Source: Candidatus Hydrogenedentota bacterium | GTDB taxonomy: Bacteria; Hydrogenedentota; Hydrogenedentia; Hydrogenedentales; JAJRTN01 | Length of the DNA stretch: 49,196 bases | Assembly: GCA_024278275.1 (NCBI GenBank) | Contig: JAJRTN010000125.1 | Coordinates: 1 to 49,196 of the forward strand | Reading direction: 5' to 3' | Part shown: piece by piece, positions 31,791 to 49,196 of the stretch | How positions within the stretch are numbered: the stretch's first letter is position 1 | Layout of the letters: the number at the start of each line of letters is the position of its first letter | Made by a program: the position numbers and the translations under genes | Notes under the pieces: generated by a model | Told to the model about the DNA's origin: nothing | The model's input: the letters and a program-made list of their open reading frames with translations, nothing else | The model's database searches: none

Positions 31791-33995
31791 TCAGGGCTTC
31801 CGCAGGGTGAATGGCGTGTCCACGCGCAACGGGACCGGCGTATCCAGGGGTACGTCGGCGTGGTCTCGCGCGAGGGGAAACTTTGTTCGGGCGCCTTCCG
31901 CGATGATCGTCAGGATATGATCGCCCTCAACCACGCGGGAAAGGGCCAGGGAATAGCTGTTTTCTCGAATCCCATGGGCCAACAGGTTATTATCCAGCAG
32001 CAGCGTGAAGGAATCAGGCTTCTTTCCGGCCACTTCCCAACGCACCTCCAGGCTGTTCGCCGTCACTACCTGCCCGGGATTCGGCGGGTAAACAGCCAGT
32101 ACGGTGGTCTCCGGCTCCCGCTCCTTGTACAGGGCGATGAGTGCTTGAGCGACATTGAAGCTTTTATACCCCCATCCCCCGTCATCACCGCGATACCCGT
32201 CCGCGGTTAACGAGACGGGCTCGATGTCGTCGGAGAGTTCCACGCTGTAGGTGTCGCCGTAGAGGTTGCCGGGGTAGGGATAACCCTCAAGCTGGCCGGT
32301 GAACTCGTTCCACTGATGGAGCAGGACGAAGCGCGGTTTGTGCTTCAAAGCCGTTTTGAACGTGTGAATCAGCGTGGTACCGTTTCGGCGGCCCCATGCA
32401 TCATCGGCAAGCCACATACGTGAGCCAAAAAAGCCCGCGGAAGGTGTACAAACCTCCGCCACGCCATCGCGATAGGTGACCACCGGGTCCGGCGTCCCGT
32501 CCATCCAAGACCAGTAGCCGTGGCGGTCTACCTTCGTGAGCTGGAGTTGGGCGCCCATGTAGCGAATGGTGAAATGAGTATCGTCGATGGGGGTGTCGAA
32601 GGCTTCCCAGGCGGGAACGACGGTATTGTGCAGCAATACGATGAGCGGTTTCCCGTCCACCATCACCCACAGTCCTTTGAAGCGGGGATTTCGGATGAAG
32701 TGGTTGTGGAGCCATTCGAGCTCTTCGTTGACGGTCTCCGGGCTGTTAACGGGACCATTTCCGAGGAAGGGCATGATGACCAACTGGGGTGCGGGATAGC
32801 CTTCATCCCGGAGTTGCGCATACACCTCAAGCGTGACTTCGGTCGAATGAATCTGCAAGTTCGCCGCGTCCGAACGGTTCTCCCAATGCTGGCTGCCGTC
32901 TTCCGCGGGAGGGATATAGATGGGCCAGTCGGCGGAAATGAAGTCCACGCCCATGTCCATCAGCCAGAGGGCGTGCTGCCGGATAACGTCGGGGTTGTAG
33001 GATTCGTAGAGGCCCACCATGGGCACGGCCTGCGTGTTGTGCCAGTAGAACATCTCCTTGAAAAAGTAGCTGCCCCACTGCATGCCGACGAGATGGTCCG
33101 GGTCGCGCCGTGATGGGATCATTCGGCGGGTTACCTGCACGGTGATGGGTTCCGATACGGTGGCGTTCCCAGGAAGCGGTCTGCCTGCAAAGAGATCATC
33201 GCGCCGCACGCCCCCCGGCCAATCCTCGAAGTGAGCCGCTTTCCATACGGCATCCTGAAGCCTTCCCGGGACCCGAACGGGCTGTCCTTTTTCCACCGGT
33301 TCGGGCCAGGCGGCGGGTGGCGCCTCCCAGGCTTCCCAGCGGCGGTCGGTCACCAGGAGGCGTCGCCGGCCGTCGGTCATGTATTCCAGTTGGACCGCGA
33401 CACCCGCGATGCCGGTTCCCTTCTTCGCCTCCACGGCCAGCATATTGCCGCCGCGGCGGAAAAGCCCCGGCGCCACGGAAGTCGTCGTTGCCGAGTCGAT
33501 TCCTTTCGCCATGGCCAGAAGCGTTCCGTTCAGGTAAATACGCGCCGTGTGGTTTGCCGAAGCCCGGAGGCGCGCGGCATCGACCGGCGCTGTTTCCTGG
33601 AAGCGCGTGGCCAGGAAGGCATTTTCGCACGCGGCGTTCTTGGTCCAGACGATGCAGGTGTCCCTGAAACCGGGCAGGGCGCGCACCTGTACCGAGGCCG
33701 GGCCAACGTTTGGGAAGGGCAGGATGATTCGCCCGTGGCCCTCTTCGCCGGTAACCTCGTGCGCCCCCCAGCGACGCCCGTTTACATAAGCGAGAAGAAG
33801 ACAGGAGGCCAGCGGGGCGGCGGATCGGGCGTCGGAGACCTGAACGTCCAGCGACACGGAGCCGCCCATGGGCACGGTTGTTTTATCGGCGGCGACGTCA
33901 ATGCACACGGGCAACGTTTCCGAAAACGCCACGATAGTTCCTATCATCGCCAGACCGAGGGCGGCCGTGCATTGACGGACCATGGAGTATTGCAC
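31791..33995 (-). CDS. putative glycoside hydrolase (TIM-barrel GH-like), paralogue of 26389-28725
   Basis: A signal peptide is present (AALGLAMIGTIVAFS). Conserved blocks are shared with the 26389 gene (GLWVMVDGKPLIV vs WFRWEGKPLILA, and the YGDTYS region). Confidence 0.45.
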   Translation of the reverse strand: MQYSMVRQCTAALGLAMIGTIVAFSETLPVCIDVAADKTTVPMGGSVSLDVQVSDARSAAPLASCLLLAYVNGRRWGAHEVTGEEGHGRIILPFPNVGPASVQVRALPGFRDTCIVWTKNAACENAFLATRFQETAPVDAARLRASANHTARIYLNGTLLAMAKGIDSATTTSVAPGLFRRGGNMLAVEAKKGTGIAGVAVQLEYMTDGRRRLLVTDRRWEAWEAPPAAWPEPVEKGQPVRVPGRLQDAVWKAAHFEDWPGGVRRDDLFAGRPLPGNATVSEPITVQVTRRMIPSRRDPDHLVGMQWGSYFFKEMFYWHNTQAVPMVGLYESYNPDVIRQHALWLMDMGVDFISADWPIYIPPAEDGSQHWENRSDAANLQIHSTEVTLEVYAQLRDEGYPAPQLVIMPFLGNGPVNSPETVNEELEWLHNHFIRNPRFKGLWVMVDGKPLIVLLHNTVVPAWEAFDTPIDDTHFTIRYMGAQLQLTKVDRHGYWSWMDGTPDPVVTYRDGVAEVCTPSAGFFGSRMWLADDAWGRRNGTTLIHTFKTALKHKPRFVLLHQWNEFTGQLEGYPYPGNLYGDTYSVELSDDIEPVSLTADGYRGDDGGWGYKSFNVAQALIALYKEREPETTVLAVYPPNPGQVVTANSLEVRWEVAGKKPDSFTLLLDNNLLAHGIRENSYSLALSRVVEGDHILTIIAEGARTKFPLARDHADVPLDTPVPLRVDTPFTLRKP

Positions 33996-34176: not shown

Positions 34177-35265
34177 TCAGCCGCCTCCGCCAAAGACCGC
34201 GGACCAAAAGCTGAAGGAGTTGCCCACCGTGCCCACGATGCCGCCAATGTCGGAAGCATTGGCAATGGGGAATTTGCTCTTGAACTTGATGAATTCCACA
34301 TGGCCATCCATCCAGAGCACGTTGCATCCGCCGGGGACATGGTTGAAACGCATGATGCCCGTGTCCGCGGCGTGGGTCTGATCAATGCCGGCGGTGGCCA
34401 ACCATTTGTAGATGCCTTCCTCGGAAAAAGCGTCCATCATGATGGGCAAGGTGCTTTGCGCGATGGCCCCGGCCGCCGGGTTGTTGATGTCCGTGATAAA
34501 GAAACGCTCAATGCCGTCTTTCAGGCGGGGAAGGGTTGACGGCCACGGACTGCCATCGTCATCGACCTGCGGGCCGAAGATGGCAAAGATATGGTCCTGC
34601 ACATTGATGTCACTGTTCCAGGGAGCATAATTTCTGAGGTCCACCACGAAGTTGTTGAATTGACTGAAGGCGGTCCCGTCACAGCCTTGGTTGATCATCT
34701 CCTGTCCCGATGTCTGCGGGTTGTCGTAAAAGCCCGGGCGGGCATAGGAGATATTATAGGCCGCGCTGACCCCCCATAAGGTGGCCTCGGTTCGGGCCGC
34801 GTTGGGCACATACCAATACGAAACCGGTTGCGAAAGCATGAAGTTCAAACATGCCCGGTTGTTGTTTTGGCCCTGCGCGATGGTCGCAATGTCCTGAATC
34901 TGCTGGGCGAAATCGTCTTTCACGCCAAAGCGCTCTCCCCAGAGGTCGCCCCGGGGATCCGAAGGACAGACGGCAATGTTTGGATCCGTCCAGTAGTCCG
35001 GGTAGAGCACCTCGCCCGCGTAGGCCAGGTGTGCCGTCGTCCACGATGGGATGTTCACCGTGGAATGACCGGGATAGAGTCCGCCCCGGTCTTCGCCGGA
35101 ATACATCTTGAAGATGATTCCCCACTGCTTGAGGTTGTTGGCGCATGATGCGCGTCGTGCCGCCTCCCGCGCCCGCGCCAGGGCGGGCAGCAAGATGGCG
35201 GCCAGGATGCCAATAATGGCGATGACGACCAAGAGCTCGATGAGTGTAAAGCCTCTCTTGTTCAT
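34177..35265 (-). CDS. DUF1559 / H-X9-DG protein with prepilin-type N-terminal cleavage-methylation domain (type II secretion pseudopilin-like)
   Basis: The N-terminus ([47 protein letters not shown]) is the hallmark of this PVC-superphylum family. A perfect Shine-Dalgarno sequence (AAGGAGA) lies 5 nt before the ATG. Confidence 0.85.
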
Positions 35266-36488: not shown

Positions 36489-37361
36489 CATATGAACGCT
36501 TCAGCCAACACGAAGGATTTGAACGGAAACTGCCTGGCCCGGCTTCGCGCCTGGACGAAACAGGGCAAGGGTTCCGTGCCGGCGATTGCCGCTTTTGTGC
36601 TGGAAAACCCCGAGCAGGCCCTGAACGTGACCATCAATGAATTCGCCTTGCGATCCAAGGCCGCCGTATCGTCGGTTTCCCGTTTTTGCACCACCATCGG
36701 CTATTCGGGTTACAAGGAGTTTCAACTGGATCTTGCCGCCTCGCTTGCCCAACAGCCGCCGTCCCTGGGGGTTTTCGATGCCCATGCCGCCCCCCATGAC
36801 ATCATGCACTATGTTTTTGAATGCAACCGGCGCAGCATCCGGGAAACGGAGAAGCTGATCAGCCGGGAAGTCTTTGTCGAAGTGGCCCGGTTGATCCATG
36901 AATCGCACCGGGTGTATGTGCTTGGCGTGGGCGCTTCGGGGCTGGTGGCCCGGCAGGCGGCCACGCGCTTCATGAGCCTGGGGCTCACGGCATCGGCGTT
37001 GACGGACCCCTATCTCCAGGTATTCGTGACGGAAAACCTGGGGAAAAGCGATGTCGTCATCGGCGTGAGTCACACCGGCTTGACCCGTTCGGTGGTGGAG
37101 AGCGTCGAGGCGGCGCGTACGTGCGCGGCGAGGGCGGTGGCTATTACGAACTACCCGCAATCATCCCTGGCCAAGGCCTGTGACTTTGTGCTGACGACCT
37201 CGTTCGAGTAGCGACGCGCCAACGCGGCGGTGTCCTCCTCGCATATTGCCCAACTGTGCCTGATCGATGCGCTGTACTTCGTCGTGGGAAGTTGGCGATC
37301 CCGTGGCGCCACCGCGTTGGCGGAGCTTGCCGAGAAGCGGGTGCAACGATTGCTTCGCTGA
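36489..37361 (+). pseudogene. RpiR/MurR-family regulator (HTH_6 + SIS domain) interrupted by an in-frame TAG at 37209-37211
   Basis: N-terminal HTH_6 reads INEFALRSKAAVSSVSRFCTTIGYSGYKEFQ. The SIS domain reads VYVLGVGASGLVARQAA...VVIGVSHTGLTRSVVESVEAARTCAARAVAITN. After TTSFE-TAG the same frame continues for 49 codons, encoding the expected SIS C-terminus (SSHIAQLCLIDALYFVV...). Read-through would give a 290-aa protein. Confidence 0.6.
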
Positions 37362-37396: not shown

Positions 37397-38746
37397 ATGT
37401 ACAAACGCTACTATGACCCCAACATTTTCCTCAACATGCTGGACGGAATAGATCTCGACAATCACGTGATCGCGTCCTATTACATGAAGGACCGCCTGGA
37501 GGGAATCAAGTTCCTCGACCACTTCTCGCTTGTTCAGGCCATGGGTCTGGAGGGCTCGACCGGCACCTGGGAAAAGGTGGCGGAGGATACGGATGAGTTG
37601 CGCGCCGCCATGTCCAGCCGCATGGTGGGGTATCACGAGATCCCCGGGGAAGATGAATACACGAAGGCGGCCGTGGTCCAACTGGCCTTCCCCATCCGCG
37701 CCTGGGGCGACAACCTGCCCATGATGCTCCTGGCCGTGGCGGGCAACTGCTTCGCCTACTCCAAGAACCTCATCATGACGGATATATTCATCGGTAAGAA
37801 CCTGCTGAAAAAGTTCCAGGGGCCGAAGTTCGGGGTGCCGGGCGTGCGGGAATTGACGGGGGTCAAGGAACGTCCGCTCTCGCTGCACATCATCAAGCCG
37901 AAGATGGGCATGACCCCCGAGCAGACGGCCAACCAGGTCTACCAGACCGCCCTGGGGGGCGCCGACATGTGCAAGGACGACGAGATGCTCGCCGACGCCT
38001 ACAACAGCACGGCGGAACAGCGCGTGCCCGTCATCATGGACGCCATCAACCGGGCGGCCGACAAGATGGGCAAGAAAATGATCTACCTGTGCAGCATCAC
38101 CGATGAAAGCGACAAGATGGTCGCCAAGGCGAAACGGGCCATCGAACTGGGCGCAAACGGCCTGCTGGTGGCCTATTCGGCCGGTCTGCCCGCGTTGCGG
38201 CGCCTCACGTCGGACCCCGATATCACGGTTCCGGTCATGCTGCACGCTTCCCACATGATCGCCATGATGAAGCAGATGGCCTGGCCCGTGCTGGCCAAGT
38301 TGTGTCGCCTCTGCGGGGCGGACCTGATGCTGACGCCCACCTACTGGTCCTCCATCCCCATGGTGTCCATGGAAGAGGGGTTGCGGACTTCTTTCATGCA
38401 GCTCGCCCCCTGGGGGTATATCAAGCCGACTTTCCCCATGCCCTGTGCGGGCGTCTATCCCGGCCTGGCGCCCATCATCATCGGCGAATACGGCACGGAC
38501 ATTGTCATCCCCGCGGGCGGCGGCATGTTGGGCCACCCCGACGGGTACACGGCGGGCGCGAAATCCTGGCAACAGGCCATTGCCGGCGCGCTGTCGGAAG
38601 ACGACTTCATCGAGTTTGCGAAGAAACCCGAAAATGGCGAGTTGCGCCGCGCCATCGAGCATTGGGGTTACATCGAGCGTCCCAAGGCGCCGTGGCTGCG
38701 GGTGGCTCCCGAGTTCCATCCCAAGCCCATGAAGTTTGATGATTGA
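37397..38746 (+). CDS. RuBisCO large-subunit-like protein (form IV RLP)
   Basis: A strong Shine-Dalgarno sequence (AGGAAGGAAG) precedes the start. RuBisCO large-chain motifs are present: IKPKMGMTPEQ (cf. IKPKLGLS, Lys175) and GGADMCKDDEML (cf. GGLDFTKDDE, the carbamylated Lys201 position). The protein is 449 aa and lies 35 nt downstream of RpiR. Confidence 0.85.
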   Translation: MYKRYYDPNIFLNMLDGIDLDNHVIASYYMKDRLEGIKFLDHFSLVQAMGLEGSTGTWEKVAEDTDELRAAMSSRMVGYHEIPGEDEYTKAAVVQLAFPIRAWGDNLPMMLLAVAGNCFAYSKNLIMTDIFIGKNLLKKFQGPKFGVPGVRELTGVKERPLSLHIIKPKMGMTPEQTANQVYQTALGGADMCKDDEMLADAYNSTAEQRVPVIMDAINRAADKMGKKMIYLCSITDESDKMVAKAKRAIELGANGLLVAYSAGLPALRRLTSDPDITVPVMLHASHMIAMMKQMAWPVLAKLCRLCGADLMLTPTYWSSIPMVSMEEGLRTSFMQLAPWGYIKPTFPMPCAGVYPGLAPIIIGEYGTDIVIPAGGGMLGHPDGYTAGAKSWQQAIAGALSEDDFIEFAKKPENGELRRAIEHWGYIERPKAPWLRVAPEFHPKPMKFDD

Positions 38747-39298
38747 ATCCGGCACGGCCGACCATCGTTTTTTTGACGACCCAAAAGTGCGGCAGGAAAA
38801 GCGGTAACCGTTTACGGCATCCCGCGCCCGCCCTTGGACAATGGGGCCGGTTGGGACCGATAGAGGGAGGATAGAGCTTTGTTTTCTTATGTGACGCTGT
38901 GGAGTCCGTAGGACTTCAATGGAAAAGCGCCGCGGCGCAGACCGCCGTATTATGCTGAAATGACGGTGTTCGCCGTGACATTGGATGGCTTGAGGCCTAC
39001 CGGCCTCACAGCCGAGGGCGGCTGTGCCACATTCAAGTGAAGACTGCGCCGTGAACAGTTACGCTTTCACGGGGATAACGATCCTGGTGATGTTGCCGGT
39101 AACGTTCTTGGCGCACGGCTTCGCGGGTCACGTGACAATTCAGGCGAGACGCCCGCGATAGTCTCTTACCAGTACATTTCTTTACAAATAGGCACGAAAA
39201 GGTGATTGCATCTTTTCCTTGGCCCCAGGGTTCTCCGTGGAGACAAAAACCTGGTTCCGGCTTGGCCGGGTTAGGCGTTCCCGCGGGGGACCGTGGGA

Positions 39299-40801
39299 AT
39301 GAGGAAGAAAAGGGCTGACGCAAAAGTGAAGCGGTATCTCGCATTTGACCTGGGCGCCGAAAGCGGGCGTTGCATGTTGGGCCAACTTGACGGCGGCACG
39401 TTGGAAATCACGGAATTGCTCCGTTTCCCCAACGGTCCGGTCAACGTGAACGGCACCCTCTATTGGGATATCCTCGGCATCTACAAGAATATGCTGGAGG
39501 GGTTGTCCCTCTTCGCGCGGCGGTACGGACCGGAAGCCGATGGCATCGGCGTGGATAGCTGGGCCCTGGACTTCGGCCTCCTGGACAAGCAGGACAACCT
39601 TTTACAGAATCCCGTTTGCTACCGGGACGGGCGCACCGAGGGCATGGTGGAGGCGGTGTCGGCCACGGTGGAGCCCGGGGAAATTTTTCGTCGCACGGGC
39701 CTCAACGTGAACGCCATTCACACGTTGTTCCAACTGAAGGCCGTCGCCGAACGCAGCCCGGAGGTGCTCGAACGGACGGCTTGCCTGCTCAACATCCCCA
39801 GTTTGCTGGCCTGCTTCCTGTGCGGGGCGAAGGTGGCGGAGCACACCCTCGCGGGGACCACGCAACTCTACGATCCCCGCACCCGCGCATGGGACGCCGA
39901 ACTGCTGGGAATGCTCGATCTGCCGGTGGAGATTCTTCCGGAGATCGTGGAACCCGGCACGCTCTTGGGTGAATTGAGCGAGGCGGCGAAGGCCGCCACC
40001 GGCCTGACGCATGCGCCCGTTTTTGCCACCTGCACACACGACACGGCGGCGGCCGTGGCCTCGGTGCCGGGGGAGGGCGAGGATTGGGCGTTTATCAGTT
40101 CTGGCACGTGGTCGGTCTTCGGCACGCTCTCGGCCGAAGTGATCACGTCGGACCGTGCCCGCGCGGCGGGCGTGTGCAACGAGCCGGCATTCGGCGGAAA
40201 CTTCGTCTGCAAGAACCTGATGGGCCTGTGGCTGCTTCAACAGGCGCGGGCCTCATGGCGGCGCCAGGGGAAGGAACTCTCCTACGGGGAACTCGCGGCG
40301 GCGGCGTGGGAAGCACCCAAAGGGGGGCCGCTGGTATCGGTGGCGCACCCCGGTTTCCTCGTCCCGTCCGACATGGTGGAAGAGATTCAGCGCTTCTGCC
40401 GGGCCACCGGACAGACCGCGCCGGATTCCGTGCCCGAGGTAACCCGCTGCATTCTTGAGAGCCTGGCGCTCTGCTATCGGCAAAGCCTGGAGGATTTGAG
40501 GGCTGTCACGGGAAAAAGTATCAACCGGATTCACGTGGTGGGTGGCGGTTCACTCAACCAACCCCTGTGCCGGTTTACCGCGGCGGCTTGTGGCGTACCC
40601 GTGGCCGCGGGCCCGAAGCAGGCCACCGCCGCGGGGAACCTGCTGACCCAGGCCGCCGCCGAACTGGGCGGTCCGGAGGGAATCCGGTCCGTCGTAAAAA
40701 ACTCATTCCCCCTGAAAACATACGGGCCGGTCGATGACGACGGGTACTGGAAGAAGCGTTACGAAACGTATCTGCGAATCGAAGCATCGGGGCTTTCCTG
40801 A
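39299..40801 (+). CDS. rhaB: FGGY-family sugar kinase, best match rhamnulokinase
   Basis: Conserved blocks resemble E. coli RhaB (comparison from memory): AFDLGAESGRCML, GVDSWALDFGLLD, YRDGRTEG, NLMGLWLLQ, CILESLALCY and IHVVGGGSLN. The start is at the internal ATG, not the GTG at 39293. Confidence 0.75.
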   Translation: MRKKRADAKVKRYLAFDLGAESGRCMLGQLDGGTLEITELLRFPNGPVNVNGTLYWDILGIYKNMLEGLSLFARRYGPEADGIGVDSWALDFGLLDKQDNLLQNPVCYRDGRTEGMVEAVSATVEPGEIFRRTGLNVNAIHTLFQLKAVAERSPEVLERTACLLNIPSLLACFLCGAKVAEHTLAGTTQLYDPRTRAWDAELLGMLDLPVEILPEIVEPGTLLGELSEAAKAATGLTHAPVFATCTHDTAAAVASVPGEGEDWAFISSGTWSVFGTLSAEVITSDRARAAGVCNEPAFGGNFVCKNLMGLWLLQQARASWRRQGKELSYGELAAAAWEAPKGGPLVSVAHPGFLVPSDMVEEIQRFCRATGQTAPDSVPEVTRCILESLALCYRQSLEDLRAVTGKSINRIHVVGGGSLNQPLCRFTAAACGVPVAAGPKQATAAGNLLTQAAAELGGPEGIRSVVKNSFPLKTYGPVDDDGYWKKRYETYLRIEASGLS

Positions 40802-40816
40802 ACGGAGGACCAAGCC

Positions 40817-41797
40817 ATGTTGAAGGACTACTACTTTGGCGCCTGTCTGCCGACCTTTGGCAACTGCGCGGACCGCTATTGCCAAGGCGGCTACAAGCGT
40901 GATTTCACGATGGACGAGATGCTGGACCGCTCGCTGGAAGTGGGCAGCATCGACGGGCTGGAGTTGGTGGGCAACTGGCATGTCAACGATGGGAATGTGC
41001 GCGAAGTGGCGCAAAAGTTCAGGGACAGAAACCTGAAGATCCCCATGCTGGTGCCCGATCTCTGGACACAGGCGAAATGGGGCAAGGGCAGCCTCGCGGC
41101 GTCGGACGCCGCGACCCGGCAGGCCGCCATCGACGAAGTGCGGAAGGTCATGGACTGGGCCGCCGAACTCGATTGTCCCTACGTGGATGTCTGGCCGGGG
41201 CAGGATGGCTTCGACTACCCCTTCCAGGCGGACTACGTTTCGGCCTGGTCGTGGCTGCGTGAGGGCATCGCCGCGTGCGCGGGCCACAACGACCAGGTGA
41301 AGGTGCTGGTGGAGTACAAGCTCAAGGAGCCCCGCCGTCACTGCTTTATCGACAGCGCGGCGCGGACGCTGATGCTCCTGGACGGCATCGATAACACGGG
41401 GGTGCTCCTGGACGTGGGTCATGCCATGGCGGCGGGAGAAAACATCGCGGAGGCCGTGGCATTTCTGAACGCCTACGGCAAGCTGGATTACCTGCACCTG
41501 AACGACAACTACCGCGCCTGGGACGACGACATGATTTTCGGTTCGGTGAATCTCATCGAGGATCTGGAATTGCTGTACTGGCTCAAGCGTGTCGGGTACC
41601 AGGGCTGGCTCACCCTCGACATCTTTCCCTTCCGCATCGACGGTGTCGATGCGGCGAAGGCGTGTCAAAGCTGGATAGACGGCCTGCTCAACGCGCTGGA
41701 GAAGGTTGGCCAGGCGTCTTTTGACGTGGCCGTGGCCTCGGGTGATCCCGTGCAGGCGGGCGTCATTATCCGGGAAGCGCTTGGACTGGGCCGGTAG
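40817..41797 (+). CDS. sugar (phosphate) isomerase/epimerase, xylose-isomerase-like TIM barrel
   Basis: The protein is 326 aa with a pattern of acidic and His metal ligands typical of AP-endonuclease-2 / xylose-isomerase-like TIM barrels (VLVEYKLKEP, LLDVGH, LHLNDN). The stop is TAG. Confidence 0.65.
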   Translation: MLKDYYFGACLPTFGNCADRYCQGGYKRDFTMDEMLDRSLEVGSIDGLELVGNWHVNDGNVREVAQKFRDRNLKIPMLVPDLWTQAKWGKGSLAASDAATRQAAIDEVRKVMDWAAELDCPYVDVWPGQDGFDYPFQADYVSAWSWLREGIAACAGHNDQVKVLVEYKLKEPRRHCFIDSAARTLMLLDGIDNTGVLLDVGHAMAAGENIAEAVAFLNAYGKLDYLHLNDNYRAWDDDMIFGSVNLIEDLELLYWLKRVGYQGWLTLDIFPFRIDGVDAAKACQSWIDGLLNALEKVGQASFDVAVASGDPVQAGVIIREALGLGR

Positions 41798-41818
41798 GCG
41801 GAAGGGGATTATCGAATC

Positions 41819-42076
41819 ATGGCGACAGCAATCAAGATCCCGGACATGGGAACCACCGTGGACACCATGGTCCTGGAGACCTGGCTTGTCGAGGAAGGTG
41901 AAACCATCGACCGCGGCGACGTGATCGCCGAGATCCAGACCGACAAGGCCCTCACGGACCTGGAGTCTTTCGCGCGCGGCACGTTACTGAAGAAAATGGT
42001 GACCGAAGGCGCCGAGGTTCAGGTGGGGGACGTGATCGCCTACCTGGGAGAACCCGGCGAGGAAATCCCCGGATGA
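41819..42076 (+). CDS. stand-alone lipoyl-attachment domain protein (E2-type lipoyl carrier, 85 aa)
   Basis: The lipoyl-lysine motif is AEIQTDKALTDLES, within a biotinyl/lipoyl hybrid-barrel pattern (IKIPDMG...GETIDRGDVIAEI). No E2 catalytic domain follows. It is in the same reading frame as the upstream isomerase, separated by TAG plus 7 codons. Confidence 0.75.
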   Translation: MATAIKIPDMGTTVDTMVLETWLVEEGETIDRGDVIAEIQTDKALTDLESFARGTLLKKMVTEGAEVQVGDVIAYLGEPGEEIPG

Positions 42077-42096
42077 CCCCGGGAAAGGAAGAATAC

Positions 42097-43062
42097 ATGC
42101 CGTCGAAGTATGAGCCGACTTTTCTGCTGGACCTGTACCGGAAGATGGTCCTCATCCGGCAGTTCGAGGACCGGGTGAAGTTCCTCTTTCTGGAGGGCAT
42201 CATGCCGGGCACCATCCACCAGTACCAGGGACAGGAGGCGATAGCCGCGGGGGTTTGCGCCGCGCTGAATACTGACGACATCATCACCAGCACCCACCGT
42301 CCCCATGGCCACGCGCTGGCGAAGGGCCTTAGCGCCGAATCGCTGCTGCACGAGCTTTTCGGGAAACCTTCCGGGTGTTGTTGTGGCAAGGGGGGCTCCA
42401 TGCACGTGGGCGACCTGGAAAAGGGGATGCTGCCCGCCATTGCCATCGTGGGCGGAGGCGTGCCCATCGCCACGGGCTGCGCCCTGGCCTTCAAGATGCG
42501 CGGCGAAAAACGGGTGGCGGTCAGCTTTTCGGGCGACGGCGCCGTGAACGAGGGCGCCTTCCACGAGGGCGTCAACATGGGCGCCATCTGGGATCTCCCC
42601 GTCATTTACGTCATCGAGAACAACCTGTATTCGGCCTCCACGCCCATCGCCGACACGGTGAAGCTTGAAAAGGTTTCCGACCGGGCCGCGGGCTACGGCA
42701 TACCGGGGGTCACGGTGGACGGCAACGATGTGGTCGCCATGTATGAAGCGGCGCGGGGCGCGGTGGAACGGGCACGCAACGGGGAGGGGCCCACCTTGAT
42801 CGAGGCTGTCACCTACCGCATCACGGGCCATTCCCGGCGAGACCCCTGCAACTATCAGCCCAAGGAGCAGCGCCGGGAGGCCAGGAAGCGGGAACCCATC
42901 AGGCGATTCGCCAGGTACCTGGTGGAGAAGGGGCTGGTCACCGAGGCCGAGCTGGACATGTTCCGCGAGGAGATTGACGCAGAGATCGAACGCGCCGTGG
43001 AATCCGCCCAGGCCGCGCCGGACCCGGCTCCCGAGTTCGCCCTGGAAGGGCTCTGGGCCTGA
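42097..43062 (+). CDS. TPP-dependent dehydrogenase E1 component, alpha subunit (AcoA/PdhA-like)
   Basis: The TPP-binding motif reads GDGAVNEGAFHEGVNMGAIWDLPVIYVIENN. The phosphorylation-loop-like region reads YRITGHSRRD. The start at 42097 has a strong Shine-Dalgarno sequence (GGAAAGGAAG). An alternative ATG at 42073 overlaps the upstream stop by 4 nt. Confidence 0.8.
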   Translation: MPSKYEPTFLLDLYRKMVLIRQFEDRVKFLFLEGIMPGTIHQYQGQEAIAAGVCAALNTDDIITSTHRPHGHALAKGLSAESLLHELFGKPSGCCCGKGGSMHVGDLEKGMLPAIAIVGGGVPIATGCALAFKMRGEKRVAVSFSGDGAVNEGAFHEGVNMGAIWDLPVIYVIENNLYSASTPIADTVKLEKVSDRAAGYGIPGVTVDGNDVVAMYEAARGAVERARNGEGPTLIEAVTYRITGHSRRDPCNYQPKEQRREARKREPIRRFARYLVEKGLVTEAELDMFREEIDAEIERAVESAQAAPDPAPEFALEGLWA

Positions 43063-43108
43063 GATCACCGGAACATTACGCGGATTACACGGGAAGAGAG
43101 GTACGGAA

Positions 43109-44125
43109 TTGGCACGATTGAGCATTGCCGAAGCGCTCCGACAGACGCTTCGTGAAGAAATGAACCGGGACGAGCGGGTTTTCTGCATCGGGGAAGACAT
43201 CGCCATTCCCGGCGGCTGGGGCGGCGCTTTCACGGTGACACTGGGCCTGGAGGAGGATTTCAAGGACCGCATGATCAACACGCCCATCTCCGAAGCGGGC
43301 TTCACGGGCGTGGCCCTCGGCGCGGCGCTCATGGGGCTGCGTCCCGTGGCGGACGTGCAGTACGGGGACTTTCTCCTGTGCGCCATGGACCAGATGGTGA
43401 ACCAGGTCGCGAAGATGCGCTACATGTCCGGCGGCAAGATCAAGGTGCCCTTCGTCATGCGCGCGCCCACGGGGGCGACGGGCCGCGGCACGCAGCACGC
43501 GCAAAACCTGGAAAGCATGTTCTTGCAGGCGCCCGGATTCAAGATCGCCTGTCCCGCCACGGCCTACGATGCGGTGGGGCTTTTGCGTGCCGCCATCCGC
43601 GACGACAACCCGGTACTCCTTTTCGAGCACAAGCTGCTCTACGGCTCCAAGGGCGCCCGGGCCGAAACGGGCGCCATGGATGCGTCGAGCGAGATTCCCG
43701 AAGAGGATTACGTCGTGCCGCTGGGCAAGGGCATCGTGCGCCGCGAAGGGAGCGACATCACGGTGATCGCCCCGCTGCTCATGATGCACCGGGCCCTGGA
43801 GGCCGCGGAGATCCTGGCGGATGAAGGCGTATCGGTCGAAGTCATCGACCCGCGCAGTCTCGTGCCCTTCGATTGGGAACTGGTGGAAACCTCGGTGCGG
43901 AAGACCGGGCGCCTCGTGGTGGCCCAGGAAGGTCCCTTGCGCGGAGGGCTGTGCGGCGACATTGCCGCCGAGATGGGCGAACGCTGCTTTGATGCGCTCA
44001 AGGCCCCCGTGCTCCGGGTGGCCTCGCCGGACATCCCCGCGCCCTTCGCCCCGGCGATGGAGGCCTTCTACCGCCCTGACGCGGCGCGGATCGTGGATGC
44101 GGTCCGGAAAACCGTAAAGGATTGA
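43109..44125 (+). CDS. TPP-dependent dehydrogenase E1 component, beta subunit (transketolase-like Pyr and C domains)
   Basis: A TTG start is inferred from the conserved N-terminus (ARLSIAEALRQTLREEMNRDERVFCIGEDI). Further motifs are GFTGVALGAALMGLRPV and MRAPTGATGRG. Confidence 0.75.
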   Translation: MARLSIAEALRQTLREEMNRDERVFCIGEDIAIPGGWGGAFTVTLGLEEDFKDRMINTPISEAGFTGVALGAALMGLRPVADVQYGDFLLCAMDQMVNQVAKMRYMSGGKIKVPFVMRAPTGATGRGTQHAQNLESMFLQAPGFKIACPATAYDAVGLLRAAIRDDNPVLLFEHKLLYGSKGARAETGAMDASSEIPEEDYVVPLGKGIVRREGSDITVIAPLLMMHRALEAAEILADEGVSVEVIDPRSLVPFDWELVETSVRKTGRLVVAQEGPLRGGLCGDIAAEMGERCFDALKAPVLRVASPDIPAPFAPAMEAFYRPDAARIVDAVRKTVKD

Positions 44126-44135: not shown

Positions 44136-44741
44136 ATGGCGGAACTGCGCAGCTATATCGTGATCGACAGTTTGCAGGAGCAGTTGGCGGCGTTCATGGC
44201 CTCCACGGTGGTAGGCTACATGCCCGTGGCGGGCATGGCGGCCCTTTTCGTGGAGGTGGCGCCCGGCATGGAGATCGTGCGCCTCCTCGACGTGGCCGTG
44301 AAGGCCACCAACACGCGGCCCGCCATCCAGGTGGTCGAGCGCAGCTTCGGCACCCTCGAAGTTCACTCCGAAAACCAGGGCGACGTTCGGCAGGCGGGCC
44401 GGGCCGTGCTCGACGCCATGGGGCTTACCGAGGCCGACCGGGACGAACCCCGGGTGGCCTCGTCCACGGTCATTCGGCACATCGATCCCTACCAGGCCGC
44501 GCTGATCAACAAGAGCCGGCAGGGGAGCATGTTGCTTGCGGGGCAGACGGTGTTCATACTGGAGACCCAGCCGGCGTTGTACGCCGTGCTGGCGGCCAAC
44601 TAGGCGGAAAAGGCAAGCCGCGTCACGTTGGTGGATATCCGCCCCTTCGGCAATTTCGGCCGGCTATACCTGGCCGGGGAAGAAGCGGACGTGGTCGTGG
44701 GAAGCGAGGCCGCCATCGCGGCCCTGGAAACATGCCGCTAG
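44136..44741 (+). pseudogene. tandem BMC-domain shell protein (BMC-T-like), reading frame interrupted by in-frame TAG at 44601-44603
   Basis: A GAGGGGA Shine-Dalgarno sequence precedes the start. The first, divergent BMC-like domain reads AALFVEVAPGMEIVRLLDVAVKATNTRPAIQVVERSFGTLEVHSENQGDVRQAGRAVLDAMG. After ...ILETQPALYAVLAAN-TAG the same frame continues AEKASRVTLVDIRPFGNFGRLYLAGEEADVVVGSEAAIAALE. This completes a canonical BMC fold (cf. [27 protein letters not shown]...[13 protein letters not shown]). As annotated to the first TAG the product is 155 aa; read-through would give 201 aa. Confidence 0.5.
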
Positions 44742-44777
44742 CGGTTCATTACGGATGGAAAACCGGGAGATCAGGTC

Positions 44778-45071
44778 ATGGCTGATGCGTTGGGTATGAT
44801 TGAATGCAAGGGATTCGCGGCGATGGTTGAGGCATCGGACGCGATGGTGAAGGCCGCCAAGGTGGAACTGGTGGGCTACGAGAAGATCGGCGGCGGCTAC
44901 GTGACGGCCATCGTGCGCGGCGACGTGGCCGCGGTCAAGGCGGCCTGCGAGGCGGGCGAACGGGGCGCTCGTGCCGTGGGCGAGGTCGTTTCGGTGCATA
45001 TCATCCCGCGGCCCCACGACAACGTGGATTCCGCACTCCCCCTGGGCCGCCCCCAGGCCGTCAAGAAATAG
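44778..45071 (+). CDS. BMC-H hexameric shell protein (PduA/EutM-like)
   Basis: The sequence [64 protein letters not shown]...VHIIPRPH is a textbook Pfam00936 match. The stop is TAG. Confidence 0.9.
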
Positions 45072-45114
45072 CGCCCCGGGCGACACACGCACGATCCCAT
45101 GGAGATAAAGCCCC

Positions 45115-45426
45115 ATGCAAATTGGACGCGTTATCGGGACGGTCGTCTCGACCGCGAAGGAACCGGCGCTGGAAGGCCGTAGATTCCTGCTGGTCCAGTT
45201 CCTCGACCTCGACGCACGAACAACTTCCTCCTACGTGGTGGCGGTGGATGCCGTCGGCGCGGGCACGGGCGAGGTGGTTCTCGTCGCCACGGGCAGTTCC
45301 GCGCGCCAGACGGAGACCACGAGCAATCGGCCTTGCGACGCGGTTGTCATGGCCATTATCGACTCGTGGGACGTCCATGACGAGGTGAAGTGGCGCAAGG
45401 CCGATGATACGCCGGGAGACGGGTGA
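45115..45426 (+). CDS. BMC-P vertex protein (EutN/CcmL/PduN family), copy 1
   Basis: The N-terminus is MQIGRVIGTVVSTAK. Further motifs are FLLVQ and VAVDAVGAGTGEVVLVATGSSAR. Confidence 0.85.
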   Translation: MQIGRVIGTVVSTAKEPALEGRRFLLVQFLDLDARTTSSYVVAVDAVGAGTGEVVLVATGSSARQTETTSNRPCDAVVMAIIDSWDVHDEVKWRKADDTPGDG

Positions 45427-46823
45427 TGCCTGTTTCTCCCAACGACATAGAGCAGGCCGTTCGTGAAGTCCTCAAGCGAATCGAGGGCGAAGGTGAAACC
45501 CCCGGCCCGGTGTCGTCTCCGGCGGTGGATGACGCGGTGGAACGCGCGCGCCGCGCCTACGACGCCTACTGCGGCATGGGCCTCAACAAGCGCCATGAGA
45601 TGGTCGCCGCCATGCGGGAAGCGGCCAAGGCCCATGTGAAGACCTTCGCTGCGGATGCCGTGCGCGAAACCGGGCTCGGGCGGGTCGAGGACAAGATCCG
45701 CAAGAACCTGCTGGTCATCGTGAAAACGCCCGGCCCGGAAATACTCACCCCCGCCGCGCAAACAGGCGACCATGGCTTGATGCTGACGGAGCGCGCCCCA
45801 CACGGGGTTATCGGATCCATCACCCCGTGTACCAATCCCACCGAAACGGTGATCAACAACGCCATCAGCATGGTGAGCGGCGGAAACGGCGTGGTCTTCA
45901 ACGCCCATCCCGCCGCGGCCAAGTGCTCACAGGAGTGCATCCGGGTGCTGTCGGAGGCCATCGTCGCCGCGGGCGGACCGCCCGACCTGGTCGTGGGCGT
46001 GGAACAGCCCACCATAGAGACCGCCAGGGCCCTCATGGGGAGTCCCGGCGTGGCCCTCCTGTGTGTTACCGGCGGCGCGGCCGTGGTGAAGGCCGCCATG
46101 CTGTCCGGCAAGAAAGTGGTCGCGGCCGGCCCCGGCAATCCGCCGGTCGTCGTCGATGAGACGGCGGACCTGGCGAAGGCCGCGCGCGCCACGGTCCAGG
46201 GCGCGTCCCTGGACAACAACATCATCTGCGTTTCCGAGAAGGAGGCGGTCGTGGTCGATGCCGTGGCCGATGCCTTCAAACGGCATATGATGGAGGAGGG
46301 CTGTGTCGAGGTCTCCGGTCGCGACCGCGACCGGCTCTGCGACCTGATCTTCGCGTCCCGCGACGGCAACCGGGGCGTAATGAACAAGGATCTGATCGGC
46401 AAGGACGCCAGTGTCATACTGGACCGGATAGGCATCCGCGCCGCGCCGGAAACGCGCCTTGTCATTATGGACGTTCCGGCGGATCATCCGCTCCCCTGGA
46501 CCGAGCAACTCATGCCGGTCTTCCCCATCGTTCGCGTTTCCGACGTGGACGCGGCCATTGGCCTGGCCCTTCGCTACGAGGGCGGCCGACGGCATACCGC
46601 CGTCATGCACTCGCGCAATATCGACAAACTCAGCAAGATGGCCCGCCTGGCCAACTGTTCCATTTACGTGAAGAACGGTTCGTCCCTGGCGGGGCTCGGC
46701 ATGGGGGGCGAAGGCTACACCTCTTTCACGATTGCCAGCCCCACCGGCGAGGGGCTCACCACCGCGGTGAGTTTCACCCGCCTGCGGCGATGCACCCTCG
46801 TGGACGCCTTCAGGATCATATGA
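45426..46823 (+). CDS. CoA-acylating aldehyde dehydrogenase (PduP/EutE family) with N-terminal encapsulation-peptide-like helix
   Basis: The start overlaps the BMC-P stop (GTGATG). The N-terminal amphipathic segment DIEQAVREVLKRIEG is followed by a Gly/Pro-rich linker. The catalytic Cys region reads DNNIICVSEKE, and EGYTSFTIASPTGEG is also present. Confidence 0.85.
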   Translation: MPVSPNDIEQAVREVLKRIEGEGETPGPVSSPAVDDAVERARRAYDAYCGMGLNKRHEMVAAMREAAKAHVKTFAADAVRETGLGRVEDKIRKNLLVIVKTPGPEILTPAAQTGDHGLMLTERAPHGVIGSITPCTNPTETVINNAISMVSGGNGVVFNAHPAAAKCSQECIRVLSEAIVAAGGPPDLVVGVEQPTIETARALMGSPGVALLCVTGGAAVVKAAMLSGKKVVAAGPGNPPVVVDETADLAKAARATVQGASLDNNIICVSEKEAVVVDAVADAFKRHMMEEGCVEVSGRDRDRLCDLIFASRDGNRGVMNKDLIGKDASVILDRIGIRAAPETRLVIMDVPADHPLPWTEQLMPVFPIVRVSDVDAAIGLALRYEGGRRHTAVMHSRNIDKLSKMARLANCSIYVKNGSSLAGLGMGGEGYTSFTIASPTGEGLTTAVSFTRLRRCTLVDAFRII

Positions 46824-47386
46824 TGAGCATTCTCGGCCTCATGGAATTCGACGGCATCACGCCGGGCATGATCGCCACTGACGCCATGGTCAAGCGGGCG
46901 CCGGTGACCGTGTTGGAAACCGGCCCCATCGACCCGGGAAAGTACCTTACGGTCCTCACCGGCGACCTGGCCTGTGTCGAGGAGGCCGTCGCCGCGGGCG
47001 ATGAAAGCGGCGGCGCGCACGTGGTGCGTGGCGTCGTTCTCGCGAACCTGCACGACGGCGTGATCCCCGCGCTGAAGGGCGAGGCCCCCGACCCGGAACC
47101 GGGCGCCGTGGGCATCGTGGAGACCTCGGACACCGTGGCCGCCGTCCATGCCGCCGACGCCGCCTGCAAAGCCGCCCCGGTGGCGTTGATTACGTTGCAC
47201 CTCGCCCGTCACATCGGCGGCAAGGGCTACCTGGTGATGGTGGGCGTTCTCGCCGATGTCGAAGCGTCGGAACAGGCCGCGCGGGAGGCGGCCGCACGGT
47301 CCCTCGTGGATTCCACCGTCATCCCGCAGCCCGACGAAGCGTTCTTCGCGCGCTTGTTGCGGCCGGCGCCGTTCCGGAGGCTGTGA
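46820..47386 (+). CDS. BMC-T tandem-domain shell protein, PduT-like
   Basis: An ATGA overlap links it to the aldehyde dehydrogenase. Domain 1 reads ILGLMEFDGITPGMIATDAMVKRAPVTVLETGPIDPGKYLTVLTGDLACVEEAV. Domain 2 reads AVGIVETSDTVAAVHAADAACKAAPVALITLHLARHIGGKGYLVMVGVLADVEASEQAA. Confidence 0.75.
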   Translation: MMSILGLMEFDGITPGMIATDAMVKRAPVTVLETGPIDPGKYLTVLTGDLACVEEAVAAGDESGGAHVVRGVVLANLHDGVIPALKGEAPDPEPGAVGIVETSDTVAAVHAADAACKAAPVALITLHLARHIGGKGYLVMVGVLADVEASEQAAREAAARSLVDSTVIPQPDEAFFARLLRPAPFRRL

Positions 47387-47670
47387 AACCGGTGATTCCC
47401 GCGCGCGTCATAGGCAGACTCGTTCCGGCCGCCACGCTGGCGGCCTTCAAGGGCGTTCCCTTTCTCATCGTGCAACCGGTGGACGAACACCTCCAGGACC
47501 GCGGCGCTCCGAAAGTGGCCTGCGACGCCATCGGGGCCAACGTGGGCGAAGTGGTGTTCATGGCACAGGGCGGCGAGGCGACCTTTCCGCTTCCGGAGCC
47601 CTTCAACCCCTCGGACACCACCATCGTGGCCATCGTGGACGAAGTCACCCCGGCCGGAGAAACGTCATGA
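47383..47670 (+). CDS. BMC-P vertex protein (EutN/CcmL family), copy 2
   Basis: A GTG start overlaps the BMC-T stop (GTGA). Motifs are IPARVIGRLVPAAT, FLIVQPV and VACDAIGANVGEVVFMAQGGEA. Confidence 0.75.
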   Translation: MKPVIPARVIGRLVPAATLAAFKGVPFLIVQPVDEHLQDRGAPKVACDAIGANVGEVVFMAQGGEATFPLPEPFNPSDTTIVAIVDEVTPAGETS

Positions 47671-47939
47671 AACTGGCGCGCGTTCTCGCACAAGTTGTGG
47701 CCACCCGGAAGCACCCCTTCTATCACGGACGCAAGACCTTCATGGTGCGGACACTCGACCTGGAGGGAAAGGAGACCGGGCCCGCCTTTGTCGCCGTGGA
47801 CCGCGTCCAGGCGGGCGTGGGCGACCGCGTGTTGCTCATGCAGGACGGCGGGTCCGCACGTATCATGTTCGACGCGCCCGAGGGGCCGGTGCGGAGCACC
47901 ATCGTGGGCATCGTGGATGCCGTGGAGATGACAGAATGA
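47667..47939 (+). CDS. BMC-P vertex protein (EutN/CcmL family), copy 3
   Basis: An ATGA overlap links it to copy 2. Motifs are MKLARVLAQVVATRK, FMVRTLD and VAVDRVQAGVGDRVLLMQDGGSAR. Confidence 0.8.
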   Translation: MKLARVLAQVVATRKHPFYHGRKTFMVRTLDLEGKETGPAFVAVDRVQAGVGDRVLLMQDGGSARIMFDAPEGPVRSTIVGIVDAVEMTE

Positions 47940-48688
47940 CGGAACTGGAACAGCGAAAAGCGGTCTGCGATGTAGGCCGCCGACTCTATGAGAAAAACCT
48001 CGCCCTCGCGACGGACGGAAACATCAGCATCCGCCTCGGACCCGACCGCTATCTCTGCACGCCCAGCGGCGTGCCCAAGGGATTCATGAAACCGAATGAC
48101 CTGCTCGTCGCGGACGGCGCGGGCCGCAAATTGTCGGGCGCGGGCAAGGTCACGAGCGAGTTCAACACCCACCTCGTGTGTTACCGCGAACGGCCCGACA
48201 TTCATGCCGTGGTCCATGCCCATCCTCCCAAGGCCATCGGGCTCAGCATCGCGGAAATCGATCTGACCGAACTCGTCCTCCCCGAGGTGGTTTACACCAT
48301 CGGCGGAATCCCCACCTCCGGCTACGCCACGCCGGGCACCACGGAAGGGGGCGAAGCCATCGTGGACCTCATCCGGCAGTGCGACGCGGTCATGCTCGAC
48401 CGGCATGGCGCGGTCACCGTGGGACAGGATGTGTACGATGCCCTCTTCAAGATGGAGAAAGTGGAAACGGCGGCCGAGTCTCTGCTCATCGCACACCTCC
48501 TGGGCAATGTGCGAAGCCTGGACCGGCAACAGGTGGAAAAGCTCGAAGCCGTTCGCGAGGCCTACAACCCCCATGGCAGGGCCTACACCGAGGCCGGCGC
48601 CGAGGACGCCCTCGCTCCGGGCGCGGCGAACACCCCCGAGCTGGACCGCATCATCGCGGAAACATTGCAGACCCTGGGCTTGGCCTGA
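47936..48688 (+). CDS. class II aldolase/adducin-family protein (rhamnulose-1-P / fuculose-1-P aldolase-like)
   Basis: An ATGA overlap links it to BMC-P copy 3. The metal-binding His cluster reads HAVVHAHPP...HG. The phosphate-binding N-terminal region reads GNISIRL...TPSG. Confidence 0.8.
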   Translation: MTELEQRKAVCDVGRRLYEKNLALATDGNISIRLGPDRYLCTPSGVPKGFMKPNDLLVADGAGRKLSGAGKVTSEFNTHLVCYRERPDIHAVVHAHPPKAIGLSIAEIDLTELVLPEVVYTIGGIPTSGYATPGTTEGGEAIVDLIRQCDAVMLDRHGAVTVGQDVYDALFKMEKVETAAESLLIAHLLGNVRSLDRQQVEKLEAVREAYNPHGRAYTEAGAEDALAPGAANTPELDRIIAETLQTLGLA

Positions 48689-48758
48689 TGGCGTTACGAA
48701 ACCCTCGGGATGTCGATCCCCAAGGCAATCTTCAGCGAGGGGGCCGCACCGTCTCTTT

Positions 48759-48781
48759 GTTGCGGCCATCTCAGCCGCAAC
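48759..48781 (+). other. perfect 8-bp stem-loop downstream of the microcompartment operon
   Basis: GTTGCGGC, loop catctca and GCCGCAAC form the stem-loop about 70 nt after the aldolase stop. No U-tract follows on the plus strand, so its function (terminator or RNA element) is unclear. Confidence 0.25.
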
Positions 48782-48883
48782 ATGCGAAACAGCAGGGCCA
48801 AGCGCGGTCCTATGGATGGGACGCCCCAAGCCCCAATTAGCGCAAATGTCCCGGGGAACGCCATGGAGAAGGAGAGGACCAAC

Positions 48884-49196
48884 ATGAGCTTTCGGTTTTG
48901 GCGAAGGGTCAAACTCGCGCCCGGGGTGACCCTGAACCTCGGCAAATCGGGCGGGTCTTTTTCGTTTGGACCACGAGGAGCGAAGATCACCCTCGGGACC
49001 CGAGGTAAACGCGCCACGGTGGGACTCCCCGGAGCCTGACCTGACGTCTAGCCGCCTTAGACAACATGGACCCGAGGTAAACGCGCCACGGTGGGACTCC
49101 CCGGAACAGGCATCTTCTACACCACGACTTTTCCGGGCGGAAGCGGGGCGGGCCGGGGAAGCCGATCTTCCGCCGTCGCGCCGCCCCCTTCCATTC
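48884..49196 (+). pseudogene. DUF4236-family protein gene disrupted by a 72-bp repeat-flanked insertion (3' end beyond window)
   Basis: A strong Shine-Dalgarno sequence (GGAGAAGGAGAGG) precedes the start. The N-terminus MSFRFWRRVKLAPGVTLNLGKSGGSFSFGPRGAKITLGTRGKRATVGLPG is a DUF4236 hallmark. The ORF hits TGA at 49037-49039 inside the first repeat copy. The family-typical continuation (TGIFYTTTFPGG...) resumes in frame only after the second repeat copy. Confidence 0.5.
48996..49105. repeat. pair of perfect 38-bp direct repeats separated by a 34-bp unique spacer
   Basis: ggacccgaggtaaacgcgccacggtgggactccccgga occurs at 48996-49033 and again at 49068-49105. The intervening sequence gcctgacctgacgtctagccgccttagacaacat contains stops in all relevant frames. 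Confidence 0.85.

What the first reader, a model, noticed from the sequence alone, without database searches (positions are those of the whole stretch)
44601..44603. Second in-frame TAG splitting a tandem BMC-domain shell gene
The 155-aa ORF after E1 beta carries a divergent BMC-like domain. It ends at TAG in the middle of what aligns as helix alpha-1 of a second, canonical BMC domain (ILETQPALYAVLAAN | AEKASRVTLVDIRPFGNFGRLYLAGEEADVVVGSEAAIAALE). The second half is in the same frame and ends at another TAG at 44739-44741. Reading through would give a 201-aa BMC-T-like protein, and the truncated product would lack most of domain 2. This is the second amber-interrupted gene within 7.5 kb.
Basis: seen in the sequence. 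Interest (0 to 1): 0.65.

Follow-up and report, generated by a model that had tools for sequence, protein, structure and literature searches.

The report
Nonsense-interrupted BMC-T shell protein gene
An ordinary microcompartment shell gene (CcmP/CsoS1D type) in a Hydrogenedentes-like metagenome contig has one G-to-T change that turns an invariant glutamate codon into a TAG stop; this is most likely a recent knockout or a sequence error, not a recoded codon.

Summary
ORF 44136-44603 (155 aa) ends at TAG 44601-44603, and the same frame runs 45 more codons to TAG 44739-44741. The joined 201-aa product is a full-length double-stacking tandem BMC shell protein (BMC-Tdp): CcmP E=5e-70, H. ochraceum BMC-T 2e-63, CsoS1D 6e-51.

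The TAG replaces an invariant Glu (AAN-E-AEKA). The three nearest relatives (about 84-85% nt identity) carry GAG there. In 56 metagenome loci with this motif the base is G in 54, C in 2 and never T. None of the 120 listed homologues, apart from this contig's own product, stops there.

TAG is a normal terminator in this contig: 7 of 37 genes end with it, including this gene's own conserved end and the next gene. The window has no tRNA, no Rfam hit and no unusual RNA structure after the TAG.

The upstream RpiR/SIS regulator (TAG 37209-37211) carries the same GAG-to-TAG change at a conserved Glu. No other gene in the window is interrupted, and the locus shows no sign of long-term decay.

Best reading: two very recent loss-of-function mutations in one BMC regulon. 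A consensus G>T error is the main rival. Recoding or suppression is unlikely, at about 6%. Interest is low.

The parts
44136..44600 (+). 5' part of the BMC-Tdp shell gene, codons 1-155. It holds the complete CsoS1D_N-type domain 1 with the gating pair E68-R69, and the first half of domain 2.
   Evidence: (P0100 = this product, PF27545)
44601..44603 (+). In-frame TAG at codon 156. It replaces an invariant Glu codon, GAG in the three nearest relatives, so it is a single G>T change at 44601.
44604..44741 (+). 3' part of the same gene, codons 157-201, plus the natural TAG terminator at 44739-44741. The terminator is conserved as TAG at the same position in L001, L141 and L142.
36492..37361 (+). 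RpiR-family regulator (HTH_6 + SIS) with in-frame TAG at 37209-37211 (codon 240 counted from ATG 36492). The TAG replaces a conserved Glu (GAG in L001). The true end is TGA 37359-37361.
37397..44125 (+). Intact upstream enzyme genes of the same superlocus: RuBisCO-like protein 37397-38746, FGGY kinase 39293-40801, xylose-isomerase-like TIM barrel 40817-41797, lone lipoyl-domain protein 41819-42076, PDH-type E1 alpha 42073-43062, and E1 beta from about 43109 to 44125 (start not determined).
44778..48688 (+). Intact remainder of the BMC core: BMC-H 44778-45071 (ends TAG), BMC-P 45115-45426, AldDh 45423-46823, tandem BMC-T 46790/46814-47386, BMC-P 47383-47670, BMC-P 47667-47939, and class II aldolase 47936-48688.

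Best explanation
The gene is a standard CcmP/CsoS1D-type BMC-Tdp shell gene of an HO-type-II-like microcompartment locus in a Hydrogenedentes-like MAG. A single G>T transversion at 44601 changed the invariant Glu156 codon GAG to TAG.

TAG is read as stop in this organism. The product is therefore a 155-residue fragment that lacks two beta-strands and the last helix of domain 2, so it cannot form the pseudo-hexameric trimer (inferred).

The RpiR/SIS regulator at the head of the same superlocus carries the same kind of lesion (GAG>TAG at 37209). Together these look like very recent loss-of-function mutations that switch off one BMC regulon in the sampled population. The frames downstream of both stops are still perfectly conserved, so decay has not begun.

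Shown: gene identity, the ancestral codon, the uniqueness of the TAG, and normal use of TAG as a stop. Inferred: that the change is real in the DNA rather than a consensus error, and that the fragment is non-functional.
For: Identity:
- phmmer against the PDB gives CcmP 5e-70, HO-5816 BMC-T 2e-63 and CsoS1D 6e-51 over residues 2-199.
- 563 homologues were found; those listed are nearly all about 205 aa with PF27545+PF00936.

Ancestral state:
- Glu156 is invariant in a 29-sequence alignment and in every full-length relative of a 21-sequence alignment.
- L001, L141 and L142 carry GAG.
- In 56 metagenome loci the base is G in 54, C in 2 and T in 0.
- The only 155-aa product in the list of the best 120 homologues is P0100, from this 49196-bp contig.

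TAG is a stop here:
- The terminators of 37 genes are TGA 24, TAG 7 and TAA 6.
- Extensions beyond the other TAG terminators are either non-coding junk or simply the next gene in the same frame.
- This gene's own terminator is TAG in all four close relatives.

No decoding machinery or signal:
- No tRNA and no Rfam match.
- RNA downstream of both TAGs folds no better than shuffles, z = -0.61 and +0.83.

Favouring selection for loss over random error:
- Both hits are nonsense, and both fall in the 12-kb BMC superlocus, which is 25% of the window.
- Only about 3% of random substitutions are nonsense.
- The lineage shows no excess of amino-acid changes: 42 window-unique against 55 L001-unique over 8 genes.
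Against: There are no reads and no second assembly of this population, so a real mutation cannot be told from a consensus error. Exact look-ups found no other copy.

Two identical G>T changes also fit oxidative-damage artefacts. Under uniform mutation, two GAG>TAG hits have only about a 1% chance among pairs of nonsense changes, which hints at a specific process.

The perfectly intact downstream frames are equally expected if the TAGs are errors or are read through.
Confidence: 0.52

Rival explanations
1. Consensus or base-calling error. The true sequence has GAG at both sites, and the TAGs come from G>T artefacts (for example 8-oxoG damage at low coverage) or a mis-polished assembly. The gene would then be intact and ordinary.
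For: Both lesions are the same G>T change on the same strand. Everything downstream is perfectly conserved, 42/45 identical to P0001. The lineage shows no sign of relaxed selection. The TAG allele is seen only in this single MAG contig.
Against: No other gene in the window shows a frameshift or premature stop, so the assembly looks clean. Only about 3% of random substitutions, and by my estimate from the counts about 6% of G:C>T:A substitutions, give a stop. Two nonsense errors would therefore imply tens of errors in 49 kb. Both falling in one functional locus has a chance of about 6%.
Confidence: 0.35
2. Amber suppression or programmed readthrough. A suppressor tRNA or leaky termination yields some full-length 201-aa BMC-Tdp and full-length RpiR, so expression of the locus is tuned at the level of translation.
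For: Both TAGs sit at conserved Glu codons in one regulon, and the downstream frames are fully intact. Two identical events are somewhat unlikely by chance.
Against: The TAG is not conserved in any orthologue. TAG ends 7 of 37 genes, including this gene itself and its neighbour, and only one of the seven (15362-18016, TAG-TAA) has an adjacent back-up stop. There is no tRNA in the window and no stimulatory structure. To my knowledge no natural Glu-inserting amber suppressor is known.
Confidence: 0.06
3. TAG encodes pyrrolysine or is otherwise reassigned in this organism.
For: Only the presence of two in-frame TAGs.
Against: TAG is clearly used as a terminator. The sites are invariant Glu in families with no known Pyl members. 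The window has no pyl genes or tRNA. No paper held in the library links Hydrogenedentota with pyrrolysine.
Confidence: 0.01
4. A functional split gene: the 155-aa fragment and a separately initiated C-terminal peptide (TTG 44628 or GTG 44631) reassemble into a shell protein.
For: In-frame TTG and GTG codons lie 9-10 codons after the TAG.
Against: No homologue among the 120 listed is split this way. No convincing ribosome-binding site is visible. The break lies in the middle of a helix.
Confidence: 0.02

Closest known systems
CcmP (beta-carboxysome BMC-Tdp; PDB 4HT5, 5LSR)
   Same: Full-length homology over residues 2-199 at E=5e-70. Same tandem permuted BMC domains, the same AANEAEKA helix motif, and an aligned Glu-Arg pair (E68-R69 here against E69-R70 in CcmP).
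   Different: This gene sits in a catabolic aldehyde-dehydrogenase/aldolase BMC locus, not a carboxysome. It is interrupted by TAG at codon 156.
Haliangium ochraceum BMC-T2/T3 (Hoch_5816 and relatives; PDB 5V74, 6N07) and the HO BMC locus type
   Same: E=2e-63 to HO-5816. The locus content matches type II HO as described by Sutter et al. 2021 (PMC8217296): a BMC-P triplet, AldDh, a CcmP-like BMC-Tdp, and a class II aldolase with two BMC-P genes in the main locus.
   Different: Here the core is preceded by a RuBisCO-like protein, an FGGY kinase, a sugar isomerase and a lipoyl protein plus E1 alpha/beta, and the phylum is different. Assignment to the HO type was not tested by AldDh or shell-protein phylogeny.
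CsoS1D (alpha-carboxysome; PDB 3F56, 3FCH)
   Same: E=6e-51, and the N-terminal domain is annotated CsoS1D_N (PF27545).
   Different: It lacks the roughly 75-residue N-terminal extension of CsoS1D; the query aligns to chain residues 79-276.
Ordinary nonsense pseudogenes and amber mutations
   Same: A single-base change from a sense codon to TAG, seen in one lineage only, with the ancestral codon preserved in all relatives.
   Different: Two identical GAG>TAG events lie in one regulon, with no other decay.
Pyrrolysine-decoded TAG in methylamine methyltransferase genes
   Same: An in-frame TAG with the coding frame continuing beyond it.
   Different: In Pyl genes the TAG is conserved among orthologues and the genome carries pylTSBCD. 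Here the TAG is unique to one contig, replaces an invariant Glu, and TAG otherwise terminates genes.

Membership tests
BMC-Tdp shell proteins (CsoS1D/CcmP type) | Two tandem BMC-fold domains in about 200 aa, the first of CsoS1D_N type | tested here: met
   PF00936 is matched across the TAG at 27.9 bits, above the 24.5 cut-off. P0100, this contig's product, carries PF27545. The AlphaFold model of the 95%-identical P0001 shows two repeats of beta-alpha-beta-alpha-beta-beta-alpha, pLDDT 88.8.
BMC-Tdp shell proteins (CsoS1D/CcmP type) | Full-length sequence homology to solved BMC-Tdp structures | tested here: met
   CcmP 5e-70, HO-5816 2e-63, CsoS1D 6e-51 and RMM MSM0275 2e-46
BMC-Tdp shell proteins (CsoS1D/CcmP type) | Conserved Glu-Arg pore-gating pair | tested here: met
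   E68 and R69 are invariant in alignments A1 and A2 and align to the ER of CcmP. That these are the gating residues is from my own knowledge of the CcmP and CsoS1D structures.
BMC-Tdp shell proteins (CsoS1D/CcmP type) | An uninterrupted reading frame giving a complete second domain | tested here: not met
   TAG at codon 156, positions 44601-44603. As written, the gene is a disrupted member of the family.
BMC-Tdp shell proteins (CsoS1D/CcmP type) | Trimer formation and face-to-face stacking of two trimers | not testable with these tools
   This needs biochemistry or multimer modelling.
HO-type (type II) BMC locus, after Sutter et al. 2021 | A BMC-P triplet, AldDh, a CcmP-like BMC-Tdp, and an aldolase with two BMC-P genes in the main locus | tested here: met
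   Three EutN_CcmL genes, Aldedh, a tandem BMC gene and Aldolase_II. The description is in PMC8217296.
HO-type (type II) BMC locus, after Sutter et al. 2021 | AldDh and shell proteins fall in the HO clades of the published trees | not tested
   No phylogeny against the catalogue's reference sets was run.
Pyrrolysine or reassigned-TAG decoding | TAG conserved at the site in orthologues, TAG avoided as a terminator, and a tRNA-CUA or pyl genes present | tested here: not met
   No orthologue has TAG at the site. Seven of 37 genes end in TAG. No tRNA is in the window. The rest of the genome could not be examined.
Programmed stop-codon readthrough | A conserved leaky stop with a conserved downstream frame and a stimulatory context or structure | tested here: not met
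   The stop is not conserved. Downstream folding is no better than shuffles. Only the conserved downstream frame is present, and that is expected for any recent mutation.

The most novel reading that the evidence does not exclude
This Hydrogenedentes-like lineage carries an amber suppressor, or uses leaky TAG termination. GAG>TAG changes at invariant Glu codons in the BMC regulator and in the gated BMC-Tdp shell protein would then be tolerated, or used to keep both proteins at low, tunable levels. That would be translational control of microcompartment shell composition.
Probability: 0.05. Interest if true: 0.7.

Novelty: already known. Interest (0 to 1): 0.15.

Why it matters
It matters mainly as a clean negative: two in-frame ambers 7.4 kb apart look like recoding but are explained by ordinary single-base changes at GAG codons in a genome where TAG is a normal stop.

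If the mutations are real, they record a natural population that has just switched off its HO-like microcompartment by hitting both the regulator and the gated shell trimer. That is a small data point on how dispensable this functionally enigmatic BMC type is. For annotation, the gene should be flagged as a disrupted BMC-Tdp gene rather than a 155-aa hypothetical protein.

Tried and rejected
- Global TAG reassignment: rejected. Seven genuine TAG terminators were found, and the extensions beyond them are either junk or the next gene in frame.
- A second assembly of the same population, to check the base: none found. Exact look-ups of the 155-aa product, BMC-H and BMC-P were not on record. The cluster look-up shows these proteins only from this one NCBI contig.
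- Metagenome scan with the motif and N at the T: it returned only distant relatives, at most 72% nt identity, and none with T.
Neither the source genome nor its tRNA set could be reached.
- Long-term relaxed selection or a G>T mutator in this lineage: not seen. The power to detect recent events is low.
- Other interrupted genes in the window: none. Other coding-like segments after stops are simply the next gene in the same frame (Pfam).
- Readthrough-stimulating or PYLIS-like structure: none. Rfam gave no match.
- Literature link between Hydrogenedentota and pyrrolysine: none in the library.

Full report
**Observation.** ATG 44136 opens a 155-codon ORF that ends at TAG 44601-44603. The same frame continues for 45 sense codons to TAG 44739-44741. 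The joined 201-aa translation matches Pfam BMC (PF00936) across the stop codon: residues 141-197, profile positions 4-61 of 75, 27.9 bits against a curated cut-off of 24.5. The 155-aa part alone matches nothing, and the 45-aa tail alone scores only 14 bits. The two pieces are therefore one domain cut in two.

**What the gene is.** A search of 5.8 billion proteins returned 563 homologues. Those listed are nearly all 200-215 aa and uninterrupted, carry the annotations PF27545 (CsoS1D_N) plus PF00936, and where named are mostly from Candidatus Hydrogenedentes MAGs. The only 155-aa product in the list of the best 120 is P0100, which comes from a single NCBI contig of 49,196 bp, the length of this window.

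Against solved structures, the read-through protein matches over residues 2-199:
- CcmP, E=5e-70
- the Haliangium ochraceum shell protein HO-5816, E=2e-63
- CsoS1D, E=6e-51

It is thus a typical permuted, double-stacking BMC-Tdp. The Glu-Arg pair E68-R69 is invariant. An AlphaFold model of the 95%-identical orthologue P0001 (pLDDT 88.8) places residue 156 in the middle of helix 149-160. The truncated product would lose half of that helix, strands 164-171 and 174-181, and helix 183-200.

**Locus context.** The surrounding genes, in order, are:
- AraC regulator
- RpiR regulator
- RuBisCO-like protein
- FGGY kinase
- isomerase-type TIM barrel
- lipoyl protein
- E1 alpha
- E1 beta
- BMC-Tdp (this gene)
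- BMC-H
- BMC-P
- AldDh
- tandem BMC-T
- BMC-P
- BMC-P
- class II aldolase

The shell and core part matches the type II HO BMC described by Sutter et al. 2021 (PMC8217296). The whole arrangement from RpiR to the aldolase is syntenic with contig L001 from an ENA metagenome, at about 80% nt identity.

**What lies under the TAG.** In the two protein alignments the TAG column is Glu in every homologue, within the motif AAN-E-AEKA. The three nearest relatives at DNA level are L001, L141 and L142, at 84-85% identity within the gene. All three have GAG at this codon.

A scan of JGI metagenome contigs with the surrounding 22 bases, leaving the first base of the codon free, found 56 loci. The free base was G in 54, C in 2 and T in none. 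The lesion is therefore a single G>T change at 44601 that is private to this contig.

**The first amber is the same kind of event.** The RpiR regulator has TAG at 37209-37211, where L001 has GAG. Reading through extends its SIS-domain match from profile 2-104 to 2-129 of 131, and the score rises from 56.8 to 65.3 bits. More distant RpiR homologues (about 31% identity) that sit in BMC-Tdp-bearing loci from other phyla also have Glu there.

**Is TAG a sense codon here? No.**
- Of 37 genes in the window, 24 end in TGA, 7 in TAG and 6 in TAA. The only internal stops are these two TAGs.
- Reading beyond the other TAG terminators gives non-coding-looking sequence, an immediate TAA, or the next gene that happens to share the frame.
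- The BMC-Tdp gene's own terminator at 44739-44741 is TAG at the same position in all three close relatives. BMC-H, 330 bases downstream, also ends in TAG.
- The window has no tRNA and no Rfam family match.
- The 100 nt after each TAG fold no better than shuffled controls, z = -0.61 and +0.83.
- A stop used for programmed readthrough or for pyrrolysine would be conserved among orthologues. This one is not.

**Real mutation or error?** This cannot be settled without reads, and no second assembly of this population exists in the collections.

Points for a real mutation:
- Only about 3% of random substitutions create a stop. Two nonsense errors would imply many other errors, yet no other gene is broken.
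- Both hits fall in one functional unit, which makes up a quarter of the window. That fits selection for, or tolerance of, switching this BMC off.

Points for an error:
- Both changes are identical G>T transversions, the classic oxidative-damage signature.
- The downstream frames are untouched, 42/45 identical to P0001.
- The lineage shows no relaxed constraint: 42 window-unique against 55 L001-unique amino-acid changes over eight BMC genes, with L004 as outgroup.
- The lineage shows no long-term G>T bias.

Under uniform mutation, TAG is the commonest nonsense outcome in this GC3-rich genome (51%), and GAG>TAG is among the commonest single paths (10.8%). Two ambers need no special explanation, although two GAG>TAG events are mildly unusual at about 1%.

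I put a real recent knockout at about 0.5, a consensus error at about 0.35, and any form of readthrough or recoding at about 0.07 combined.

**Verdict.** The thing itself is ordinary: a disrupted, or mis-sequenced, member of a well-known shell-protein family.

Noticed in passing
window 36492-37361 (TAG at 37209-37211): The RpiR/SIS regulator at the head of the BMC superlocus is interrupted by the same GAG>TAG change at a conserved Glu. Its SIS domain continues in frame for 49 codons to TGA.
   Followed up: yes
window 37397-44125: An HO-like BMC core is preceded by a RuBisCO-like protein, an FGGY sugar kinase, a xylose-isomerase-like TIM barrel, a stand-alone 85-aa lipoyl-domain protein and PDH-type E1 alpha/beta, with no E2 catalytic or E3 gene in the window. 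The same arrangement occurs in L001. Sutter et al. 2021 call the function of HO-type BMCs enigmatic, so this enzyme set may hint at the substrate.
   Followed up: partly
window 38750-39290: A non-coding gap of about 540 bp lies between the RuBisCO-like gene and the FGGY kinase gene. No Rfam match falls in it, and the promoter/terminator scan reported no site there.
   Followed up: partly
window 15359-15364 (minus strand): The glycoside hydrolase family 3 / LysM gene 15362-18016 ends in a tandem TAG-TAA. This is the only TAG terminator in the window with an adjacent back-up stop.
   Followed up: yes
window 24475-33995 (minus strand): Four large consecutive genes of 734, 1006, 778 and 631 aa. 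The first three have no Pfam match. Two adjacent pairs (31791-33995 with 28758-31778, and 26389-28725 with 24475-26370) share a frame across a single TGA with gaps of only 4-6 codons. The 631-aa gene starts with a complete ADP-ribosylglycohydrolase domain, so that pair at least looks like two separate genes.
   Followed up: partly
window 44136-45071: The BMC-Tdp gene and the following BMC-H gene share one reading frame, separated only by TAG 44739-44741 and 12 codons. This is a coincidence of frame: about a third of adjacent same-strand gene pairs in the window share a frame.
   Followed up: yes
window 7074-11069: A 1331-aa protein with six PKD domains. Nearby are a DUF1559 / N-terminal-methylation (pilin-like) gene at 34177-35265 and a DUF4236 gene at 48710-49039. 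From my own knowledge, the DUF1559 pilin-like gene is typical of Planctomycetes-like and Hydrogenedentes genomes.
   Followed up: no
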